NCBI GenBank assembly: GCA_016187385.1
Contig: JACPJU010000001.1
Coordinates: 8,348 to 72,347, forward strand
Origin: Candidatus Aenigmatarchaeota archaeon
GTDB taxonomy: Archaea; Aenigmatarchaeota; Aenigmatarchaeia; CG10238-14; SCSR01
Length of the DNA: 64,000 nt
Direction: 5' to 3'
Shown here: one piece after another, positions 23,855-55,258 of the stretch
Position numbering within the stretch: position 1 is the first letter of the stretch
How the letters are laid out: each line of letters begins with the position of its first letter
Position numbers and translations under genes: made by a program
Notes under the pieces: generated by a model
Seen by the model: the letters and a program-made list of their open reading frames with translations, nothing else
The model's database searches: none
Told to the model about the DNA's origin: nothing

Positions 23855-26800
23855 TTATCCTGTTAGTGGCTTGAACACTTTAACAAAACCAGCTGTTATT
23901 GGATTAGTTGCATTTGTGGCATTCTGGACTACTTCAGATGGTATCGTTATCGCTTGCTCTTGCTGCAGATACTTGGAAAGTATAGAATTTATGAAATCTA
24001 TTATGAAAAGTAGCATTTGCTTGAGTCCGCCCACTTCTTCTTTTGTTTCCTTCACTTCCTTCTTAAGCTCGTCCAACTTTTGAATCATAAGCTCTAGGGC
24101 AGCGGGCGAAATGCCTGAACCTTGGCACGGAACTTTTGTTGCACACTTGTCGACACACGCCTTCAAATCAATCTCTGTCGCAGTGCCTTTGCTGATAGCT
24201 TCCTCGGCTTTCTCAAGAGTTGATGTACATGTGTTGATGCAATCATCATCTGTTACAAAATTAAAGCATTCCCCGACTGGCGTAGCCGCAACAGGCGTAC
24301 ATACTTTTTGAATGCAGTTCTCGCCGCATGAAACTTCCTTGCACGCTGACTCGAAAGGCGTGGACGGTACATAACCTTGGTATTCATATCCTTCCTTGTA
24401 TTGCAGGACAACACCTTGGACTACTTCGGCCTTTTCATAAGAAGTGCTGCTGGCTTCCAAATGAATTATGTATTTTCCTTCCGTACATTCGTATTTGCTT
24501 ATGAATTGATTGCCTGTGTATCTTTTCAAGCGATAGTCGTAGTATAAGGTGAATTGCTTGACGCACCCTTTGAGTTCTTCTGTCGGGCTTAGGGTGCCGT
24601 CGATTGCAGCGAATTCCACAGATTTACCATTTTCATCCTTCACTTCAGCGTACATAACAAGATTGGCAGCGTCTACTTGGCTGTCCATACGGAATCCTGT
24701 TTCAATAAAGAGCTTGGCCAGTGCTAAATCAAATTCTTTCAATATCTCCGCATCGGCATAACCTGGAGCATTCACTGTCAATTTCAAAGCATACTCGCCT
24801 GTTGAACATTCTGATGGTATGTACGGGCTGTCCAAGAAATATCTTTGAATGAATTCACCTTTGTATAAGACAGGTTTCACCGGCGACAGATAGATTCTGC
24901 ATACAGAAGGCTTGTAGAATCCTTCCTTGGTAGCTGGTTCTGCAAATAACGGAAACACTTCTCCGGAAACCCAGGCGTCTTTCGCAACAGTTCCATTTGG
25001 ATACGTGACTAGAATCTTCATGTACATCCTATCGTTTGGCTTGTAGCTGGTTTTGTCCAGCGAAACTTCGACATTCAGTTTCTGCTTGGTGATTTCTATA
25101 GCTTTTGTAAGCACGATCTCTTCGGGATGTTTAGAGATTTTAATTTCCATGGTGTAATTGCCGACAGCGAACCAATCCTCGACTGTCCAAGATTCTATTT
25201 CATAAAAGCCGTCTTTGAATGTTGTTGACAGGTATCGAGTGGCAAATCCCTGCGGGTCTTTTACTTGTATGCCGACTGAAGCATCTTTAACTGTTTCACC
25301 GTCTTTATCGTAAACTTTTATTCTTCCTTTCAAGACATCCTTCGGGCTTAGGACATTCTTTTCGAGCACAACATCGGCATTCAAACCCCTCTTGCCTACA
25401 GTAATGGTTGTGCTGGCGTTTGCTTTCTGCTCTTTCCATGTCGTGCTGACTGTGAACTGATATTTCTTTCCCACGCTGTCATAGTCGAGATAATATTTGT
25501 AAATGTACACATCACCGAGTATGGAGGGATATATGACCTGTAAAAGCTTGCCGGTGTCTCCGTCGCGAAGCTCGCCTGTAAGATACAAATCTTTGATGGC
25601 ATTTCCCAAGGCATCTTTCGCTGTTACAGTCAATGCTACAGAATCTCCCGAGAAGTAATCTTTTTTATCTGCAGTTATCGTGAAGGTTTGTATCGTCGGT
25701 TTGATTACTTTCAATGAAGCGTCTGCGCTTGTGGTTTTGAAATCAGAGTGAGAAACTTCTATGGATAAAGTATAATCGCCTGTTGAGATGCTCTCGCTGA
25801 GATAGTATGAAGCCTTGTAGCAATCGCATAGGGAAGAATAGAAGAAATAGAGATTGTATGTTTTTGGTCCAGTAAGGTTGCCTTTTATGTAAGCGTCTGT
25901 GACAAGCTTGCCTGAAGCGTCTGTTACAGTAATTTTAGGATCTAGGAATTCGTTAGGATAATATGTCGTCTTTGGTAAGTTGATTTTTATTTGTATAGAT
26001 TGCTTGCCGCTTGTGACAGCTACGCTCGTGCCTTTACCGACATTGCCAGCGTCGTCCTTGCATTCAAAATAAATATTGTGAGTGCCTTCCGGCAAGCCAC
26101 TAGCAAATGTGTAAGACGCTGCTCCGCTAGAAACTGTTGCTGTGTAGTTGGCGTCATTCTTTACAAGCTTGCATTCTTTGACGCCTATGTTGTCCGAGAC
26201 TGTTGCTGAAAAGGTTGATTGTTTGTTTGGTGTTACTGAAGTTGGGCTGGCGCTTCCGACAGCAGGAGATGTTGTGTCTGATGGTTGCGTTATTTGCGTT
26301 GCCAAAGTTGTAAAAGTGTTATCACCTGACACGCCTTGATTGTTTGAAACGTCCTTCGACTTTACTCGATAATGGTAAGTTGTTGATGAGGATAAGCCGG
26401 TCAAAGTAAATTTATGCGATGTCTTCAGGGTAGAATTGCTACCAACACTTCCGTAGTTCGTGTCTTTTCCATATTCCAATTCTGACGTAGCGCTTTCGTC
26501 TGTTGTCCACGATATGGCTGCAGATTCGTTTGTTATGCTTGATGCGGAGATGGATGAAATAGATGGTGCTGTCGTGTCTGATGACGGCGATGCTGTAGTT
26601 GCGAATGACGAACTTGCTGTTGCTTGAACACCGGAAGCGTCTCTTGACTTGGCCCGGTAATAATATGTTGTCGATGAAGATAAGCCGGTCAAAGTAACTG
26701 TATGGGATGTTGTCATGCTTTCGTTAGTGACATTGGTGCCGTATGTTGTGTCTTTGCCGTATTCGATTTCTGTAGTCGAACTGTTATCGGTTGTCCAAGT

Positions 26801-41970: not shown

Positions 41971-42798
41971 TTAAATCTTATGCAAAATCTCGAATACTGA
42001 CCTTGCGATTAAAAATTCGGATATCTCATTGTCTTGAGAATTAAGGCAACATACGTCAATCCCGACTATCTTTCCGTTTACTGATTGCATCATTTTTTGA
42101 AAGTTGTTGAAAAATATGCCGTCTGGTTCAGGCATGTCGACGGCAGGACATATACTAGGATCGAAAACATCGACATCAAAAGAAATGTAAACTCTTGAAT
42201 TTTTGGTGAATTCTTTTATCTGTTCTAGAACTTCCTGATTTTCGATTATCTTCCTGCTGGTGAAATATTTTATTCCGGATTTCTTCAAATCATTGAGCTC
42301 AAATTCGTCGCAAGACCTGACTCCAAGCAACATTATGTTTTCTGGTTTGATGAACTCAGAAACCCTTCTTAGCCATGTTGCGTCATTTATATTAGGGTTG
42401 TAAAAACCTTCATTCATCTCCCTTATTTTTTCATCGTCATAAGAATTCTTGAAATCTCCGTGTGCGTCAAAAACAACCAATTTCACGTTTTCAAAAGCTT
42501 TCAAGGAATAGAGTGAAAGTAAATGATTACCGCCCAATATTAAAGGGGGTTTGTTCATTTGTAGTATTTTCTTTGTTTCCTCTGTAATTCTGTCCAAGGA
42601 TGTTAATTCCATATCGCCTGAATCGTGAAGTTTCACATTTTCAAGCAGGTTCACTCCAGAATCCAAGTCCATGGGCTCTACAAATTGGCTGACATAACGC
42701 AGTGATTGTAGAGATTTGTTGGGATTTTTTCCCAGAGGCACGCCGAACGCTACTACATTGGATTCGTCCAGATTGAAGTCGAAACTTGCGAATTTCAT
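41971..42798 (-). CDS. speB: Agmatinase / ureohydrolase (arginase family)
   Basis: LILGGNHLLS (GGDHS-like). VVFDAHGDF (DAH.D). ISFDVDVFDPS (SxDxDxxDP): the binuclear-Mn ureohydrolase motifs. Confidence 0.8.
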   Translation of the reverse strand: MKFASFDFNLDESNVVAFGVPLGKNPNKSLQSLRYVSQFVEPMDLDSGVNLLENVKLHDSGDMELTSLDRITEETKKILQMNKPPLILGGNHLLSLYSLKAFENVKLVVFDAHGDFKNSYDDEKIREMNEGFYNPNINDATWLRRVSEFIKPENIMLLGVRSCDEFELNDLKKSGIKYFTSRKIIENQEVLEQIKEFTKNSRVYISFDVDVFDPSICPAVDMPEPDGIFFNNFQKMMQSVNGKIVGIDVCCLNSQDNEISEFLIARSVFEILHKI

Positions 42799-42844: not shown

Positions 42845-43285
42845 TCAGTAAGAACAGGCTTCTAGATCGTCGCTCAATCTAGGAATAAACGCCATGAATT
42901 TTCTTATATCCCTAGTCGTTCTCCTGTACTCCTCCTCCCTACCAAGGGCTATATCTGTATCGCCACATGCGATAAGTGTTTTTTCTGGTTGGTAAACGCC
43001 ATCATGAAAGATCCAGCAGTATTTGTCGGGATTTCCCGGCCATTCCGAAATACCGCCATACCCGAAAACCTCCGCAATTTTTGTCCCATTGTCGCCCCAT
43101 AAAGCGACTATCAGATAATCAGCATTTCCTACCAAGTACCTGTTTTCATACAAAGTATCTCGCGCGTGTCTTTCTGCAGCATGTGTAGTCAAGTAAGTGT
43201 CTTCAAAGCCGGCTTTGTGCATATATAATTTTGTAGGCTTGATTGCACCATTTAATATAAATCTAGCAACAAATCCCATATCCAA
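42845..43285 (-). CDS. Hypothetical protein
   Basis: 146-aa ORF. I considered and rejected an AdoMetDC/pyruvoyl-decarboxylase assignment (see noticed_but_rejected). Confidence 0.35.
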   Translation of the reverse strand: MDMGFVARFILNGAIKPTKLYMHKAGFEDTYLTTHAAERHARDTLYENRYLVGNADYLIVALWGDNGTKIAEVFGYGGISEWPGNPDKYCWIFHDGVYQPEKTLIACGDTDIALGREEEYRRTTRDIRKFMAFIPRLSDDLEACSY

Positions 43286-43388
43286 TCAGTCAAATAGTAA
43301 TCTTGTGAATATTTAAATCTTCAAGAGTCTATGAACCTCTGTACTAACCACTGAAGTAATTTATAAATGTTAATGGTATAAGTATAAT

Positions 43389-43595
43389 ATGGGAGCTTAT
43401 GAAATTGCATATTTAGACCCAGATTCTAGAAAATTGCTTTCAATGGGAGAACGCAATCGAAGATTTAGAGAAATTGCAAGAGAATATCTGGAAGGAAGAA
43501 TCAGTTACGAAACCATGAGCGATAAACGCGACTGCCTTTACAAGCCACAAATGGTACCAATTACTAAAGACAATAATCGGACTGTTGTTGTATAA
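43389..43595 (+). CDS. Hypothetical small protein
   Basis: 68-aa ORF. Confidence 0.25.
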   Translation: MGAYEIAYLDPDSRKLLSMGERNRRFREIAREYLEGRISYETMSDKRDCLYKPQMVPITKDNNRTVVV

Positions 43596-43606
43596 TCTTT
43601 CAGAAT

Positions 43607-43668
43607 TGCTTCTTCACCATGCTTCTGACAACCTTCATGACATCCTGTGCGTCTATCCTTCCGCATGT
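43607..43668 (-). pseudogene. Duplicated 3'-terminal fragment of gatE (encodes ...GRIDAQDVMKVVRSMVKKQF*)
   Basis: About 58 nt at 43610-43668 match 44459-44516 (the real gatE 3' end) with 4 mismatches. Reverse-complement translation reproduces the GatE C-terminal peptide with two substitutions. Confidence 0.55.
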
Positions 43669-43683
43669 AAGAATTATTCACGA

Positions 43684-43974
43684 TTATCCTGTTGCAACTA
43701 ATTGAAATTTCTCTTTTAGTTTTTCGTTACTTGCTAGCTTTCTTTCGAACATCTCCTCTATATCCTTGCCGGTAGGAGCATATAGTATATTGCCATCACT
43801 ATCTATGACCATTTCGCCTATAGGGAAGACAGCAACTTTCGACATATGAAATACAGGAACTATCCATATACCAACTTTACTATCAAAAATAGGCTCGCCT
43901 GGACCTATCAAGTTTCCTATATTTTCGATTAAATACCTATCTGCCTGTTCATAAGCTTCTTCTTTTGTTATCAT
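43684..43974 (-). CDS. Hypothetical protein (cargo of the gatE-3'-end insertion)
   Basis: 96-aa ORF whose start overlaps the stop of the upstream peptidase gene (4-nt overlap). Confidence 0.4.
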   Translation of the reverse strand: MITKEEAYEQADRYLIENIGNLIGPGEPIFDSKVGIWIVPVFHMSKVAVFPIGEMVIDSDGNILYAPTGKDIEEMFERKLASNEKLKEKFQLVATG

Positions 43975-44450
43975 TTAATTTCACTCCCCAAAATGAAAAT
44001 TAATCTAAATTTGCTATTCCATGCTCTGGTAAATGTTTCCAAGTCAACCTCTTTATTTTCTCCTCCAAACTCTTGATCAGGATCGTTTATAACTATGTTT
44101 TTATTTGTAATATCCTTTACTATGATGTAATGACCATGTTCGGATTCTGGCAAATTATACAAAACACTTGGTTTAACTAAGACTATAGGATAAAATCCTT
44201 TATTGATATATCTTTGCAATTCTTCAATTGTGGAGCCGAAATGGAAACTATATTCAACATTGTAATTTTCACAAATAGTTTTCATCATGTTAGGTGATAC
44301 ACCTTTTCGAGGACTAAAATTTATTATTTCAGCCAACCGATATTCATTTATTTTTATATCCATATATTCTAGAATCATTCTTAGACACGCTAAAGAGCAT
44401 GTAAAGGGAGTTTGCTGTTTATAATAAGGAAACTTTTCCACAAAAATCAA
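43971..44450 (-). CDS. Papain-like Cys peptidase, C39-like domain protein
   Basis: 159 aa. QQTPFTCSLACLRMIL (Q...C nucleophile region typical of C39 / C39-like_2) and ...HGHYIIV (catalytic His). Confidence 0.5.
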   Translation of the reverse strand: MIFVEKFPYYKQQTPFTCSLACLRMILEYMDIKINEYRLAEIINFSPRKGVSPNMMKTICENYNVEYSFHFGSTIEELQRYINKGFYPIVLVKPSVLYNLPESEHGHYIIVKDITNKNIVINDPDQEFGGENKEVDLETFTRAWNSKFRLIFILGSEIK

Positions 44451-44454
44451 TAAT

Positions 44455-45912
44455 TTACTTCTTCACCATACCTTTGACAACCTTCATGACATCCTGGGCG
44501 TCTATCCTTCCGCGAACCTTGCTCATGACAATGCCGTAAACCTTCTCGAAAGGCATGTTAGCGGATTTGTCCAGAACCTCTTTTGTGATGTCCTTAACCT
44601 CACCGGCAGTCGCAGGTTTCAGATTTAATTCCTTCAACGCCTCTTCAACGCCATCCTGCGGATAAGTCGCAAGATACTTCACTATCTGTGGTATAGCTTC
44701 CTTAACAAATTTCTTCTTGTCCAGAGCATCGAAAAGTTCCATAAATCTGTTCTCGGGTATCCTTTCAATCTCGACCTTCTCTCTTCTCTGCAGGTCTTTC
44801 AATATTGAAACAAAAGTATTAGCGACAATCGTGGGATCGACCTTCGTCTTGTCGACAATTTCCTCGAACAGATCCAGATATTCTGAATTCAGAATTTCCG
44901 TAGCCAAGCCTTCAGGCAGTTTCATCTTTACCTTGAACCTTTCCACTTTCCTTGTCCACGGCTCTGGCAGGTCTCTTCTTATCTTGTCCGTATATTCATT
45001 GGAGATTGATATCGGGAGCAAATCAGTTTCAGGATACATCCTTTCGGCGCCAGGCAATGGTCTCAGGAATTTTGTTGTCCCGTCCGGATTGAATGCGCGC
45101 GTTTCTTCCTTCACCTTTTCAGACAACTGCCTTCTGACTTCCAGTTCGATAACCTTCGACAATATTCCAAGTTCTTGTATGCCTTTGATTTCAATCCTCG
45201 GACCGTTCTTGATGCTTACGTTCATGTCCTGCCTTATGGAGCCTATGCCGTGCTTTGTCTTTCCTGTCGACCTTGTCATCACGCCGATGAGATAAGCTAT
45301 CTCCTGTATCTGTGCTGGCGTGTAACCTTCCAGTACACCAGTTCCAATTTCAACGAGAGGTATTCCCAATCGATTGAGACGATAAGTGACATTTCCGTTT
45401 TCATCGCCGACAATTGCAGCAGCATCCTCTTCCACGCTGACCTGCGCTATCGGAATCTTCTTTCCTTTGTAGACAACATGACCGTTCAATCCGATGATTG
45501 CAGTCCTCTGGAATCCTGACGTGTTGCTGCCATCGATAACAACTTTTCTCATTATCTGGATTTCATTCGGAATTTCGCAATTCAACAGCAAAGAGATTTG
45601 CAACGCAAGATCAAATGCTTCTGGATTTATTTTGTGTGGTGGCTCTTCGTCTAATTCGACAAGGCATGACTCATTATTGAAAACTTGGTAAATGAACGCC
45701 CTATCCCTCAGGTATTCGAATTCTGCTGCCGCGTCAATCCCGCCCATTTCGCTTGCGACTGGATGAAGCTTGCGGCTCACAGTGTTTGTGGGTGTTTTCT
45801 CTTTCATTGATGTCGAACAATTACAGAACAATTTGTGTTGTGTATCTAGCTGCACATGAAGTTCCAATCCGATCTTCAGTCTCAAGTTTTTGTAATTAAG
45901 AGCCTTTTCCAT
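44455..45912 (-). CDS. gatE: Glutamyl-tRNA(Gln) amidotransferase subunit E
   Basis: LRLKIGLELHVQLDTQHKLFCNC (GatB/E N-terminal signature) and C-terminal GatB/YqeY-like helical domain. Paired with the asparaginase-like GatD, hence GatE rather than GatB. Start set to the internal Met MEKALNYKNL so that it abuts gatD. The annotated ORF extends to 46008. Confidence 0.8.
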   Translation of the reverse strand: MEKALNYKNLRLKIGLELHVQLDTQHKLFCNCSTSMKEKTPTNTVSRKLHPVASEMGGIDAAAEFEYLRDRAFIYQVFNNESCLVELDEEPPHKINPEAFDLALQISLLLNCEIPNEIQIMRKVVIDGSNTSGFQRTAIIGLNGHVVYKGKKIPIAQVSVEEDAAAIVGDENGNVTYRLNRLGIPLVEIGTGVLEGYTPAQIQEIAYLIGVMTRSTGKTKHGIGSIRQDMNVSIKNGPRIEIKGIQELGILSKVIELEVRRQLSEKVKEETRAFNPDGTTKFLRPLPGAERMYPETDLLPISISNEYTDKIRRDLPEPWTRKVERFKVKMKLPEGLATEILNSEYLDLFEEIVDKTKVDPTIVANTFVSILKDLQRREKVEIERIPENRFMELFDALDKKKFVKEAIPQIVKYLATYPQDGVEEALKELNLKPATAGEVKDITKEVLDKSANMPFEKVYGIVMSKVRGRIDAQDVMKVVKGMVKK

Positions 45913-47273
45913 TATCCCACCGAAGTTCTTTCGCTTATTTCGCCTGCATAGCTCGTTGTCATCATTTCTTTGATCTTGTTCATGTCTTTCGTGTGGCCAA
46001 GAACCCACATCAATTTCACAAGCGCAGTCTCAGGTGTCCAGTCTGCATAATTGCCAATAACTCCTGTAGCATTCAGCATCCTTCCAGCTTCGTAGATGTT
46101 CAAATCGAGCCTTCCATGGATTGTTTGAGGAGCTATGACAACAGGAATCCCGGAATCTATCAGATTTTTGATGTTCGGTATGATGCTTTGTGCGAATTTG
46201 TCGCCTGTCGGATTTGCGGGCACGTTTCCTATTCCGGTAACAGCAAGAACAACACCGTCAAAACTGCTCAAGGAATTAATGAACTCCGGCTTGATGCCAG
46301 GATATATATAAACCAATGTCACATTCGAATTCATTTGGTCGTCCAACTTTACTTTTTTCTTGTCCTCTCTTTTCTTGTAGTCGGTCCTCATATATTCAAT
46401 CTTTTTATCAGGATATGTTATCTTTGCCAGAGGCCGGACATTTATGCTCCTGAAGGCGTCCCTTCGTGAGGTGTGCAGTTTCCTTACCTTTGTTCCATGG
46501 TGGACATAACAAAAATCATCTGTCGTGTTGCCGTGCATGACCACAACCACTTCAGCTATGTCTGACTCTGCCGCAACCGTGGCTCCGCAGACAAGATTCA
46601 CAAGATTATCACTGCTTCCCCTGTCGCTGCTTCTCTGGGCACCGACCAGAACAACTGGGACTGACAGGTCTCGGAGCATGAAGCTCAGTGCAGCTGCCGT
46701 GAAGTGCATCGTATCTGTACCATGCATGATAACAACGCCCTTGGATCCAGACTCGATTTCTTTCACGACTTCTTTCGCTATTATCTTCCAGTGCTCAGGA
46801 GTCATGTCTTCTGATAAAAGGTCAAACAGCTTCCTGCTTTTGATGTTCGCGACATCTTTCAACTCAGGAAAGGACAAAAGAAGGTCTGCGGGAGAAAATG
46901 CGGGAAAAACAGCTCCTGTTTTGTATTCCACCCTGGATGCAATAGTACCGCCAGCACCTAAAATGGAGATAGTCGGCTTTGAAGGGTCTTTCCTGACAGT
47001 TATTGTCGACGGCTTGAACTTGATCGGCTTGCCTCTCTCCAAGAGCTTGATTTTTACATCCTTGTCGTATTTTACCCCTATGTTGTAGCCGTTTGGGAGC
47101 TTTATCGTCAAGGAGGAAGGATCGCCCAGCCCTATCCTAGGCATAAGTATACCCGCATACTGGATTTTACCATTAATTACAGAAATTTTATCTCCAATCT
47201 TTATCTTTTTGCTTTTCAGCAACGATTCGATTTCTTGAGAATACAAGGTTTTCCCAATATAATTATGTTTCAA
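45912..47273 (-). CDS. gatD: Glutamyl-tRNA(Gln) amidotransferase subunit D (asparaginase-like)
   Basis: ILGAGGTIAS (GGTIA asparaginase motif 1) and HGTDTM (motif 2). N-terminal GatD-specific domain. Confidence 0.85.
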   Translation of the reverse strand: MKHNYIGKTLYSQEIESLLKSKKIKIGDKISVINGKIQYAGILMPRIGLGDPSSLTIKLPNGYNIGVKYDKDVKIKLLERGKPIKFKPSTITVRKDPSKPTISILGAGGTIASRVEYKTGAVFPAFSPADLLLSFPELKDVANIKSRKLFDLLSEDMTPEHWKIIAKEVVKEIESGSKGVVIMHGTDTMHFTAAALSFMLRDLSVPVVLVGAQRSSDRGSSDNLVNLVCGATVAAESDIAEVVVVMHGNTTDDFCYVHHGTKVRKLHTSRRDAFRSINVRPLAKITYPDKKIEYMRTDYKKREDKKKVKLDDQMNSNVTLVYIYPGIKPEFINSLSSFDGVVLAVTGIGNVPANPTGDKFAQSIIPNIKNLIDSGIPVVIAPQTIHGRLDLNIYEAGRMLNATGVIGNYADWTPETALVKLMWVLGHTKDMNKIKEMMTTSYAGEISERTSVG

Positions 47274-54209: not shown

Positions 54210-54725
54210 TCACCTCATTACAGTTTCTGGCGCTATGCCGAGAGTCTTTTGGATAGCTCCAGCCAAATCAGTTGTTTTGATCCTGCATTCCTCTATCAGA
54301 TTCCTCCTCACATCGTTGTACAATGTCCTGAAGTAAAGCCATCTCATAGCTTTGGATATAGAACTCATTTCAAGTATTGTATTTTCAGGCGATTCTGTTC
54401 TCAGGATGGATCTCAGTAAAACAGTCATCTCCCCGTCTTTGTTCGGGTCTGATGGCTGCTTGCCCTGCATTATGACTTCCGCATAAACAACTGACCAGTA
54501 ATCATAACTTTTCTTTACTATAAACCGCGAGAAGAATTCCCTCGGCTCGCTTGTGATGTCCCATCTGAATTCCCTTTCCCAGACATCCTTTCCTCTGACA
54601 TCGAATATGTTTCGCAGAAAGGTTCCAACAGAGCCGTAAACTTTGAAAGGATTCGGACCTTTGAAGTCTATCCTCAATTGTCTGTCAGGCGCAAGGCAAT
54701 CGTCTTCCAAAACCCACATAGGCAT
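54210..54725 (-). CDS. Uncharacterised protein, paralog A (GPNP / REFRWD / EECR motifs)
   Basis: 171 aa. Shares GPNP, REFRWD and EECR motifs with the adjacent 175-aa ORF. Confidence 0.45.
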   Translation of the reverse strand: MPMWVLEDDCLAPDRQLRIDFKGPNPFKVYGSVGTFLRNIFDVRGKDVWEREFRWDITSEPREFFSRFIVKKSYDYWSVVYAEVIMQGKQPSDPNKDGEMTVLLRSILRTESPENTILEMSSISKAMRWLYFRTLYNDVRRNLIEECRIKTTDLAGAIQKTLGIAPETVMR

Positions 54726-54730
54726 TTACA

Positions 54731-55258
54731 TCACATCTTCGGTAGCAGGTTGAAGAACGATTTTATTTCATCGCTGAAATGCAACAAAAGCTCCCTGCAT
54801 TCTTCAACGTACCTTTTTCTTATCGACTGGTATATGACCTTGTGGTAGAATGTCCTGAACATTTCATAAAGCAGGCTTCTCTGCCACACCGTGTCTTGGG
54901 GATATTCTGTTCTTATCTTGCCCTCGAATCTTATCCTTACATTCCCTTCTTTGCCAAATTCCTTGCTTGGGTGTATTGTTCCGTCGATTTCTATCGTTAT
55001 GTCCTGGAATGTGTGCGTGTCCAAGTCTTTTATGGTCTCGAACCTGACATGGAAGCTCTCGCCGCCGGGAATCTTGTCCCACCTGAATTCCCTTTCCTGG
55101 ATTTCCCTTTCCGTGATGCCGAACAGGGAAGAAAACAATTTCCTGATGTATTCGTAGACATACTGCGGATTCGGACCGCTGTATTCAAGCACGGCCGTAG
55201 GTCTTGGAACCAGACAATAATCATGAATCAAAATTCTTGTTCTTGCGAATACTGGCAA
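54731..55258 (-). CDS. Uncharacterised protein, paralog B (GPNP / REFRWD / EECR motifs)
   Basis: 175 aa. Tandem paralog of 54210..54725. Confidence 0.45.
   Translation of the reverse strand: MPVFARTRILIHDYCLVPRPTAVLEYSGPNPQYVYEYIRKLFSSLFGITEREIQEREFRWDKIPGGESFHVRFETIKDLDTHTFQDITIEIDGTIHPSKEFGKEGNVRIRFEGKIRTEYPQDTVWQRSLLYEMFRTFYHKVIYQSIRKRYVEECRELLLHFSDEIKSFFNLLPKM

What the first reader, a model, noticed from the sequence alone, without database searches (positions are those of the whole stretch)
43607..44520. Two-gene cassette (C39-like peptidase plus 96-aa partner) bracketed by a duplicated gatE 3' end
This geometry is what site-specific integration into a gene's 3' end leaves behind, but here it is only about 0.85 kb with no integrase.

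- The last about 58 nt of gatE (44459-44516) recur at 43610-43668 with 4 mismatches.
- Reverse-complement translation of the distal copy gives ...GRIDAQDVMKVVRSMVKKQF*, versus the real ...GRIDAQDVMKVVKGMVKK*.
- Between the two copies lie exactly two overlapping minus-strand genes: a papain-like C39-like peptidase and a 96-aa unknown.
- Integration into a 3' end classically gives an attL that restores the gene from the element-borne copy and an attR that carries the displaced original copy.

The likeliest readings are the remnant of a degraded integrated element, or an unusual small insertion.
Basis: seen in the sequence. Interest (0 to 1): 0.65.

Follow-up and report, generated by a model that had tools for sequence, protein, structure and literature searches.

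The report
Mobile two-gene cassette duplicating gatE's end
A 790-base, two-gene module (a small cysteine peptidase and its partner protein) has inserted at the very end of an essential gene in a tiny DPANN archaeon and copied that gene's last 59 bases on both sides. The same module sits at other places in related genomes with the same kind of local duplication and no integrase or transposase, so it looks like an unusual small mobile element, not the wreck of a larger one.

Summary
Bases 44455-44513 (the last 18 codons plus stop of gatE) recur at 43606-43664, 54/59 identical, with no third copy and none expected by chance.

Between the copies lie 790 nt holding two overlapping minus-strand genes:
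- a stand-alone C39-like cysteine peptidase (pep);
- a 96-aa partner (p96).

The host is an Aenigmatarchaeota (DPANN) genome. Cassette-less relatives (GatE 68-72% identical) run gatE straight into agmatinase and have no second gatE end.

The pep-p96 pair occurs in at least seven other contexts in related archaea. At four further loci it is again bracketed by a 30-41-nt duplication of whatever host sequence is there:
- gatE 3' end, with a different cassette subtype;
- the overlapping SepF/glyS ends;
- a promoter plus start codon;
- the 3' end of a convergent gene (borderline).

No context holds an integrase or transposase. The inserts have no terminal inverted repeats, no shared att core and no room for an attC.

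Between two lineages the cassette is 97.5% identical while its flanks are 74-81% identical, which indicates recent spread by homologous recombination.

Best reading: a promoterless mobile protease/partner cassette whose insertion duplicates tens of bases of target, so abutting essential genes stay intact. The "degraded integrated element" reading is not supported. The insertion chemistry is inferred, not shown.

The parts
44455..45912 (-). gatE (485 aa, short form), the target gene, intact
   Evidence: Pfam GatB_N 4.2e-56 and GatB_Yqey 1.9e-11. gatD lies immediately upstream.
44455..44513 (-). Proximal repeat copy: the functional last 18 codons plus TAA stop of gatE
44442..44454 (-). 13-nt leader between the gatE stop and the probable GTG start of pep. 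There is no room for a promoter, which implies read-through from gatDE.
   Evidence: Sequence. The leader and start resemble those of L186 (TGATACTTGTGGAAAG against TGATTTTTGTGGAAAAG).
43971..44441 (-). pep: stand-alone C39-like cysteine peptidase (156 aa from GTG 44441; 159 aa if TTG 44450)
   Evidence: Pfam PF03412 57.3 bits and PF13529 57.3 bits. Q9, C15, H104, N119, D120 and D122 are invariant in 26 homologues. Model pLDDT 92.6; Foldseek matches PeiR, ComA-PEP, PCAT1 and LahT at TM 0.7-0.79.
43684..43974 (-). p96: 96-aa partner protein of unassigned fold. Its start overlaps the pep stop (ATGA).
   Evidence: Eight close homologues, usually next to pep. Profile search finds 56 representative clusters, including a pep-p96 fusion, P0174. 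Model pLDDT 84.8 with no significant fold match.
43665..43683 (-). 19-nt tail of the insert after the p96 stop
   Evidence: Too short for an attC. No terminal inverted repeat with the 5' end.
43606..43664 (-). Distal repeat copy: dead gatE 3' end (K->R, G/S, stop TAA->CAA, one synonymous change)
   Evidence: No start codon upstream: in-frame TAA and TGA precede it.
43389..43595 (+). p68: convergent small ORF. Its stop lay 10 nt from the original gatE stop before the insertion, so the site had almost no free intergenic DNA.
   Evidence: No family hit. Absent from relatives.
42845..43285 (-). p146: a further lineage-specific ORF between gatE and agmatinase. Not part of the repeat-bounded insert.
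   Evidence: Absent in L087 and L187, where gatE abuts agmatinase. No family hit.
41971..42798 (-). Agmatinase, the gene that directly follows gatE in cassette-less relatives
   Evidence: Pfam Arginase. L087 is 68% identical and starts 4 nt after the gatE stop. In L187 it starts 3 nt after.

Best explanation
**What it is.** A promoterless, roughly 790-bp two-gene cassette has been inserted exactly at the end of gatE. It encodes a stand-alone C39-like cysteine peptidase and its cognate ~95-aa partner. The pair is most likely a protease with its inhibitor, immunity protein or substrate, behaving as a selfish or conflict module.

**How the repeat arose.** The insertion duplicated the resident last 57 nt plus stop codon of gatE. 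This is a long target-site duplication, as produced by a staggered break with fill-in or by a replication template switch.
- The upstream copy keeps gatE intact and lets the cassette be read through from the gatDE transcript.
- The downstream copy is a dead remnant that has since drifted: its stop codon is lost and it carries K->R.

**Why here.** In these very compact genomes neighbouring genes abut or overlap. Only insertions whose duplication spans a gene end or start leave both neighbours intact, so survivors sit at gene boundaries.

**Spread.** Once in place, the cassette passes between related lineages by ordinary homologous recombination in its conserved flanks.

**Shown:** the insertion, the locus-specific duplications at several loci, the absence of integrase, transposase, terminal inverted repeats (TIRs) and a shared att core, and recombinational spread in one lineage pair (L171/L176).

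**Inferred:** how the break or duplication is made, which enzyme does it, co-transcription with gatDE, and the protease/partner biology.
For: 1. **Repeat and insert geometry.**

2. **Empty sites.**
- L087 (GatE 68% identical), L187 and L188 (72%) have gatD-gatE followed within 3-4 nt by agmatinase.
- None of these, nor L088 (where a convergent radical-SAM gene follows gatE), holds a second gatE end within 2.5 kb downstream (0.7 kb in the short L188 contig).

3. **The same cassette family at other loci, with locus-specific flanking duplications.**
- L186: the gatE 3' end, ~30 nt, z = 7.7, around a different subtype (pep only 47% identical to the window's).
- L171 and L176: 35/32 nt, with 22 nt perfect in L171, spanning the SepF stop and the glyS 3' end; z = 12.3 and 8.5.
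- L173: at least 41 nt of promoter-like sequence plus ATG, z = 14.8.
- L172: ~35 nt of the 3' end of a convergent gene, 5 of 1000 shuffles reach the score.

4. **Both window copies come from the same lineage.** They are 92% identical to each other and 64-79% identical to relatives' gatE ends. No GatE above 72% identity exists among 5.8 billion proteins.

5. **Drift is mostly in the dead copy.** The functional copy keeps the clade-typical K, and the dead copy has lost its stop.

6. **No conventional machinery or ends.**
- No TIRs.
- A tail of 0-19 nt.
- No integrase or transposase domain in any context table.
- No tRNA gene in the window.

7. **Foreign composition.** GC is 31.8%, the 0.5th percentile of the window.

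8. **Recent recombinational spread.** Between L171 and L176 the cassette is 97.5% identical (third codon positions 95-97%). Flanks are 74-81% identical (third positions 59-63%). The high-identity tract runs from about 176 to about 1180.

9. **The two genes work together.** They are adjacent or overlapping in most contexts and fused in P0174.
Against: - No insertion chemistry or enzyme is identified. Target duplications of 30-59 nt are far longer than those of ordinary transposons.
- The repeat copies are not identical (54/59 in the window). One copy could therefore have come in with the DNA from a close, unsampled relative rather than being duplicated in place.
- At the G/S codon it is the dead copy that keeps the clade-typical Ser.
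- Three loci (L170, L178-L185, L175) show no flanking repeat. This needs the assumption that it decayed.
- The window and L186 insertions at the same gatE site share a similar 5' leader. They might be one old event with later exchange of the cassette body, which would lower the count of independent events.
- All comparison loci are metagenomic contigs, some only 1.4-2.8 kb long.
Confidence: 0.55

Rival explanations
1. Homology-driven integration with a donor-borne copy. The cassette arrived on DNA that already carried a gatE 3' end. This could be a circle excised by recombination between the flanking repeats in another cell, or a linear fragment with one-sided homology. It was integrated by the host's RadA recombination (Campbell-type single crossover, or homology-facilitated illegitimate recombination). 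One repeat copy would then be the donor's and the other the recipient's, and the 5 mismatches would be donor-recipient divergence.
For: - The copies differ at 5 of 59 positions.
- The functional proximal copy carries the atypical KGM, while the dead copy keeps the clade-typical Ser.
- A divergent cassette occupies the same gatE site in L186, with a similar 5' leader.
- Homologous recombination demonstrably moves the cassette with its flanks between lineages.
- Both repeat copies share lineage-specific variants in L171 against L176. This suggests continuing exchange between the copies.
Against: - It does not explain how each new locus (gatE, SepF/glyS, the L173 promoter, L172) first acquired its own host-derived repeat.
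- It needs a donor within about 8% DNA divergence, and none closer than 72% GatE protein identity is known.
- The L171/L176 exchange tract extends about 150 nt beyond the repeat into glyS. That fits a double crossover in the flanks, not a crossover confined to the repeat.
Confidence: 0.25
2. Remnant of a larger integrase-borne element that integrated into the gatE 3' end (attL/attR) and then lost everything except two cargo genes.
For: - The geometry matches: direct repeats of a gene's 3' end bracket low-GC foreign DNA.
Against: - At five loci the unit between the repeats is the same gene pair (with one extra p96 gene in L173), flush to within 0-19 nt of the repeats.
- The repeats are unrelated sequences at different loci, so there is no common att.
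- No integrase remnant appears in any context.
- No pep or p96 relatives were found in IMG/VR viral contigs, and no p96 relatives in GenBank phages or PLSDB plasmids.
Confidence: 0.05
3. Retro-insertion. A leaderless bicistronic pep-p96 transcript was reverse-transcribed and inserted by target-primed synthesis, which typically gives variable, long target duplications and gene-flush boundaries.
For: - Insert boundaries lie 0-19 nt outside the two ORFs.
- The insert carries no promoter.
- Duplication length varies from about 30 to 59 nt.
- There are no TIRs.
Against: - No reverse transcriptase is seen near any copy.
- No A-rich 3' tail.
- No precedent in archaea for processed gene insertion.
- The boundaries are equally well explained by streamlining.
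Confidence: 0.05
4. The pair is an old, vertically inherited part of the gatDE neighbourhood, and the repeat is an unrelated local duplication.
For: - Two lineages have pep-p96 right after gatE (the window and L186).
Against: - The closest relatives lack it.
- The window cassette is 78% identical to cassettes at the SepF/glyS locus but only 47% identical to the one at gatE in L186.
- Its composition is foreign.
- The repeat boundaries coincide with the cassette boundaries at five loci.
Confidence: 0.05

Closest known systems
Integrase-mediated genomic islands and proviruses that integrate into the 3' end of a tRNA or protein gene (attL/attR)
   Same: Direct repeats of the target gene's 3' end bracket foreign, compositionally distinct DNA, and the target gene stays intact.
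   Different: No integrase. Only 790 nt long. The flanking repeat is a different host sequence at each locus, so there is no element-borne att core. In one case the repeat is a promoter plus start codon rather than a 3' end.
IS1634 / IS1549 (IS1634 family), which create long, variable-length direct repeats (8-514 bp) on insertion (PMC2266710, citing Vilei 1999 and Plikaytis 1998)
   Same: Long target duplications whose length varies from copy to copy. The mechanism is unexplained there too.
   Different: Those elements encode a DDE transposase and have terminal inverted repeats. This cassette has neither.
Campbell-type insertion-duplication and homology-facilitated illegitimate recombination (my own knowledge of the bacterial transformation literature)
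   Same: Integration that needs only host recombination and leaves a duplicated stretch of homology on both sides of the insert. Homologous-recombination spread of the cassette with its flanks is seen here.
   Different: It requires the incoming DNA to carry the host segment already, and does not explain the first arrival at each locus.
Co-transcribed papain-like protease / cognate inhibitor or immunity pairs (staphopain-staphostatin 1pxv; CdiA-CT/CdiI 8ssm; toxin/immunity pair 9l5u)
   Same: The pep model matches these proteases (E = 1e-4 to 1e-5). It is a small protease followed by a small overlapping partner gene, and the pair is fused in some genomes.
   Different: The p96 fold matches no solved inhibitor or immunity protein. 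Toxicity and neutralisation are untested. No secretion or delivery domain.
C39 bacteriocin-processing peptidase domains of PCAT/AMS ABC transporters (ComA, PCAT1, LahT)
   Same: The same fold and the Gln/Cys/His/Asp-Asn set.
   Different: Stand-alone, about 155 aa, with no transporter nearby. The partner has a conserved G-x-G at residues 24-26, not a canonical double glycine, and its N-terminal helix is modelled as part of a globular fold.
CRISPR repeat duplication by Cas1-Cas2, and casposon insertion (14-15-bp duplications) (my own knowledge)
   Same: Staggered integration that duplicates tens of bases of target.
   Different: No Cas1 or casposase, no TIRs, and the insert is about 0.8 kb. This is an analogy of geometry only.

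Membership tests
Peptidase C39 / C39-like (Pfam PF03412, PF13529) | Sequence match above the curated threshold | tested here: met
   57.3 bits against cut-offs of 22 and 24.
Peptidase C39 / C39-like | Catalytic Cys and His, with the oxyanion Gln and an Asp/Asn, conserved | tested here: met
   Q9, C15, H104, N119, D120 and D122 are invariant in 26 homologues.
Peptidase C39 / C39-like | Papain-like C39 fold | tested here: met
   Model pLDDT 92.6. TM 0.76-0.79 to PeiR, 3erv and ComA-PEP, E down to 3e-8.
Peptidase C39 / C39-like | N-terminal domain of, or adjacent to, a peptide-exporting ABC transporter, and cleaves a double-glycine leader | tested here: not met
   Stand-alone, with no adjacent ABC transporter: the only one within +/-10 kb lies about 8 kb away, beyond gatD and pyrG. 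The partner has G-x-G, not GG. Cleavage itself cannot be tested here.
Site-specific integrative element (tyrosine/serine integrase, att in a gene's 3' end) | Integrase gene in or next to the element | tested here: not met
   None within +/-10 kb of the window copy or in any other context.
Site-specific integrative element | The same att core flanks copies of the element family | tested here: not met
   The repeats are gatE, SepF/glyS, a promoter, and another gene's end: unrelated sequences.
Site-specific integrative element | Direct repeats bracket the element and the target gene is restored | tested here: met
DDE transposon / insertion sequence (including the IS1634 type with long repeats) | Transposase gene | tested here: not met
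   The only genes are pep and p96.
DDE transposon / insertion sequence | Terminal inverted repeats | tested here: not met
   End-against-end alignment scores 12-16 against a null of 13-15, at five inserts.
DDE transposon / insertion sequence | Target-site duplication | tested here: met
   30-59 nt at five loci. This is much longer than usual and comparable only to IS1634/IS1549 (PMC2266710).
Integron gene cassette | attC recombination site (at least ~55 nt, imperfect palindrome) at the 3' end, and an array next to intI | tested here: not met
   Only 0-19 nt between the p96 stop and the host repeat. No intI and no array.
Toxin-antitoxin-like / protease-inhibitor two-gene module | Two small, co-directional, overlapping genes that co-occur and move together | tested here: met
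   4-nt overlap. The pair is conserved in at least six contexts, and a fusion (P0174) exists.
Toxin-antitoxin-like / protease-inhibitor two-gene module | One product is toxic and the other neutralises it by binding | not testable with these tools
   Needs expression experiments or a model of the complex.

The most novel reading that the evidence does not exclude
The pep-p96 pair defines a new kind of recombinase-less mobile element in DPANN archaea.
- It enters new sites with target duplications of 30-60 nt. These would be made by host repair or replication, or by an unrecognised activity of its own two proteins.
- This allows insertion between abutting or overlapping essential genes.
- It then spreads across lineages by homologous recombination.
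- It favours the flanks of highly conserved tRNA-charging genes (gatE, gatD, glyS, alaS).
Probability: 0.3. Interest if true: 0.8.

Novelty: new variant of a known kind. Interest (0 to 1): 0.62.

Why it matters
- **How compact genomes gain genes.** DPANN archaea have tiny, gene-dense genomes, and how they acquire genes is poorly understood. This cassette shows a concrete route. A small module lands at gene boundaries, and a long duplication of the target keeps both neighbours intact. The module then travels between lineages on conserved flanks without encoding any recombinase.
- **A possible missed class.** If this is general, a class of mobile DNA escapes every integrase- or transposase-based detection tool.
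- **A warning for annotation.** A duplicated gene 3' end does not by itself indicate an integrase-borne island.
- **An uncharacterised gene pair.** The stand-alone C39-like peptidase and its private partner are candidates for a new conflict or addiction module. They lie next to tRNA-charging genes more often than expected.

Tried and rejected
- **Third repeat copy or other repeats of this kind in the 64 kb:** none. The only other repeats are low-identity tandem paralogues.
- **tRNA or Rfam element at the site:** none.
- **Virus or plasmid carriers:** pep and p96 are absent from IMG/VR. p96 is absent from GenBank phages and PLSDB plasmids.
- **Protein family libraries:**
  - PHROGs gave only marginal hits.
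  - PADLOC gave none.
  - NCBIfam gave only sub-threshold C39 hits for pep.
  - phmmer of pep against PDB sequences gave none.
- **Terminal inverted repeats:** none.
- **p95 C-terminus of L186 derived from a longer decayed gatE copy:** rejected, because the same C-terminus is conserved in L173 at an unrelated locus.
- **Extension of the L171 repeat by a further ~17 nt:** about 11/15 identity in AT-rich DNA, so not claimed.
- **Closer relatives of the host to catch the pre-insertion allele:** none above 72% GatE identity.
- **Literature:** no paper found on this pair or on such insertions in Aenigmatarchaeota.
Full report
**Observation**

The repeat exists and is not chance.
- Window 43606-43664 and 44455-44513 are 59-nt direct copies, 54/59 identical, 849 nt apart.
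- A degenerate pattern of the repeat hits only these two sites and none in 100 shuffles.
- The flank-against-flank alignment scores 93 against a null of 16.4 +/- 2.3.
- The proximal copy is the true end of gatE (...VMKVVKGMVKK*). The distal copy reads ...VMKVVRSMVKKQF* and has no start codon upstream.
Everything else it described is correct.
- The arrangement is identical in six independently assembled Logan contigs.

**Anatomy (minus strand)**

The gene order is:
1. gatD, 45912-47273.
2. gatE, 44455-45912.
3. A 13-nt leader.
4. pep, 43971-44441. The probable start is GTG, giving MEKFPYYKQQ..., by comparison with L186. A TTG at 44450 is the alternative.
5. p96, 43684-43974, overlapping pep by ATGA.
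6. A 19-nt tail.
7. The dead gatE end, 43606-43664.
8. 10 nt, then the stop of the convergent ORF p68 (43389-43595, plus strand).
9. p146, 42845-43285.
10. Agmatinase, 41971-42798, followed by deoxyhypusine synthase and a decarboxylase.

The insert between the copies is 790 nt. Its GC content is 31.8%, the 0.5th percentile of 790-nt windows in the 64 kb (median 39.5%). It has no room for a promoter of its own.

**Host and empty sites**

- The genome is a Candidatus Aenigmatarchaeota MAG (locus tag HYW24_, 786-kb contig).
- No GatE more than 72% identical exists among 5.8 billion proteins.
- The nearest relatives are L087 (68%) and L187/L188 (72%). They have gatD-gatE followed within 3-4 nt by agmatinase.
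- Neither they nor L088 (where a convergent radical-SAM gene follows gatE) hold a second gatE end within 2.5 kb downstream (0.7 kb in the short L188 contig).
- So the repeat goes with the cassette. It is not a conserved downstream element.
- These empty sites also lack p68 and p146. About 1.65 kb is therefore lineage-specific here, and the dead gatE end lies in the middle of it.

**The cassette elsewhere**

Searches with p96 and pep and the contigs that encode the hits give eight contexts.

| # | Locus | Context | Flanking duplication |
|---|---|---|---|
| 1 | Window | gatE 3' end | 59 nt |
| 2 | L186 (GCA_053529715.1) | gatE 3' end; different subtype, pep 47% identical to the window's | ~30 nt of the gatE end: AGATTGTAAAAAGCATGATGAAATAGGATTTA against AGATTATTAAAAGCATGGTGAAATA--ATTTA, z = 7.7 |
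| 3 | L171, L176, L177, L175 | SepF -> pep -> p96 <- glyS | L171: 35/32 nt, 22 perfect. L176: same place, more mismatches, pep frameshifted. L175: decayed |
| 4 | L173 | pep plus two tandem p96 genes of different subtypes | at least 41 nt of promoter-like sequence plus the ATG of the downstream gene, z = 14.8 |
| 5 | L172 | Truncated pep plus p96, upstream of a divergent gatD | ~35 nt of the 3' end of a convergent gene, decayed; 5 of 1000 shuffles reach the score |
| 6 | L178-L185 | TctA -> pep -> p88 -> alaS | none |
| 7 | L170 | Between a zinc-ribbon gene and an Mrr-like gene | none |
| 8 | L167-L169 | p96 alone, in a toxin-antitoxin-rich island | not tested |

At locus 3, one copy supplies the SepF stop codon and the other the glyS end. 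These two genes originally overlapped tail to tail.

Across five loci, then, the same unit is bracketed by a duplication of whatever host sequence lies there. Each duplication spans a gene end or start that both neighbours need.

**What it is not**

- No context table contains an integrase or transposase domain.
- The five inserts have no terminal inverted repeats.
- The repeats share no core sequence.
- Insert boundaries lie 4-17 nt before the pep start and 0-19 nt after the p96 stop. This leaves no room for an attC.
- There is no tRNA gene in the window and no Rfam hit at the site.
- No viral contig carries pep or p96, and no phage or plasmid record carries p96.
- It is not plausible that five separate larger elements each decayed to the same gene pair, flush with their att sites. 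I therefore reject the "degraded integrated element" reading.

**Origin of the two copies**

- The copies are 92% identical to each other and 64-79% identical to relatives' gatE ends. Both are equally distant from those relatives. Both therefore come from this lineage's own gatE or from a very close relative's.
- Against the clade consensus (...VMKIVKSMMK*):
  - the dead copy has changed K->R and lost its stop;
  - the live copy has Ser->Gly;
  - one change is synonymous.
- Most drift is in the dead copy, as expected if both were identical at insertion. The Ser/Gly site leaves room for a donor-borne proximal copy.

**Spread**

- L171 and L176 share the SepF/glyS insertion. Their flanks are 74-81% identical (third codon positions 59-63%). 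The cassette is 97.5% identical (third positions 95-97%).
- The high-identity tract runs from ~25 nt inside SepF to ~150 nt inside glyS, then falls to ~80%. This is a recent recombinational import of the cassette with short flanks between diverged lineages.
- The window's cassette is closer to those at the SepF/glyS locus (78%) than L175 is to L171 at that same locus (71%). It is far from the cassette at gatE in L186 (47%). So the cassette has changed locus, or been exchanged, rather than descending with gatE.

**The genes**

pep:
- It is a stand-alone C39-like peptidase, above Pfam thresholds.
- The Gln/Cys/His/Asn-Asp set is invariant.
- The model is confident (pLDDT 92.6). It matches PeiR, a Bacillus C39-like protein, ComA-PEP, PCAT1 and LahT.
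- More weakly, it matches papain-like toxins that come with immunity or inhibitor partners.

p96:
- It models confidently (pLDDT 84.8) as an N-terminal helix, a five-stranded sheet and two C-terminal helices.
- It matches no family or solved fold.
- Its family is small: 56 representative clusters among 1.84 billion proteins.
- The family includes P0174, in which a C39 domain is fused to a p96 domain. The two proteins therefore act together.
- A conserved G-x-G at residues 24-26 follows the N-terminal helix. This resembles a double-glycine leader only loosely.
- I infer a protease with a private inhibitor, immunity protein or substrate. This part is untested.

**Mechanism**

Best-supported model (confidence 0.55):
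- A mobile, promoterless cassette inserts with a duplication of tens of bases of target, by staggered break and fill-in or by a replication template switch.
- In a genome where neighbours abut (10 nt between the gatE and p68 stops here) or overlap (SepF/glyS), only such insertions spare both genes. Survivors therefore sit at gene boundaries, co-directional with an upstream gene that can drive them.
- The cassette then spreads by homologous recombination in the flanks.

Main rival (0.25):
- Host-recombination (Campbell-type or one-sided-homology) integration of DNA that already carries the host segment.
- It explains the mismatches and same-site recurrence, but not first arrival at each new locus.

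Retro-insertion of a leaderless transcript and vertical ancestry are minor alternatives.

**Comparison with what is known**

- The geometry mimics integrase-borne islands in gene 3' ends, but fails their defining tests (integrase, common att).
- The only transposable elements known to make long, variable duplications are IS1634 and IS1549, at 8-514 bp and with an unexplained mechanism (PMC2266710). They have a transposase and inverted repeats, and this cassette has neither.
- I therefore rate it a new variant of a known kind (a small mobile or selfish gene cassette). There is a real chance (~0.3) that it represents a distinct, recombinase-less class.

**Limits**

- All comparison loci are metagenomic, and several are short.
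- The number of truly independent insertions is at least three (gatE, SepF/glyS, L173) and at most five.
- No enzyme or intermediate has been observed.

Noticed in passing
window 42845-43595: Two further ORFs lie between the dead gatE end and agmatinase: p68 (plus strand) and p146. They match no family and are absent from every relative examined. GC is 38.5% and no flanking repeat was found. Together with the cassette they make about 1.65 kb of lineage-specific DNA at this spot, which suggests an insertion hot spot.
   Followed up: partly
L186 and L176 (both from GCA_053529715.1): One related genome carries two cassettes of different subtypes. One follows gatE (pep 47% identical to the window's). 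The other lies between SepF and glyS (78% identical) and its pep is frameshifted.
   Followed up: partly
eight cassette contexts (window, L186, L172, L171 group, L178 group, L170, L173, L167 group): Five of the eight contexts lie directly next to tRNA-charging genes: gatE 3' end twice, gatD 5' end, glyS 3' end and alaS 5' end. With about 24 such genes in about 850, a rough binomial gives p ~ 3e-4 even after dropping the one locus found through GatE. The cause could be a functional link, or a preference for highly conserved flanks that allow recombination between lineages.
   Followed up: partly
L173 499-1098: Two p96 genes of different subtypes (101 aa type A, 97 aa type B) sit in tandem after one pep. 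The second starts immediately after the stop of the first. p96 may therefore also move or be exchanged on its own. It occurs alone in L167-L169.
   Followed up: no
L171 176-1180 against L176: A recombination tract of about 1 kb is 97-98% identical. It covers the cassette, both repeats and ~150 nt of glyS, inside flanks that are 74-81% identical.
   Followed up: yes
window 43606-43683: The dead gatE end is in the same reading frame as p96, separated from it by two stop codons (TAA, TGA). This is probably coincidence (1 in 3).
   Followed up: no
window 44455-45912: This GatE is a short form of 485 aa. It lacks the inserted PF02938 domain that is present in the 615-626-aa GatE proteins of other Aenigmatarchaeota listed in the same search.
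   Followed up: no
window 26346-26715 and 54557-55123: Two low-identity (76-78%) direct repeats of 82 and 49 nt, spaced 288 and 518 nt apart. They look like tandem small paralogous genes and are not of the same kind as the gatE repeat.
   Followed up: no
window 1-64000: ARAGORN finds no tRNA gene anywhere in the 64 kb.
   Followed up: no
P0193, P0208, P0209: The p96 domain also occurs fused to other modules: DUF928 plus TPR, and a weak NitrOD2 hit. It may therefore be a more general adaptor or partner domain.
   Followed up: no
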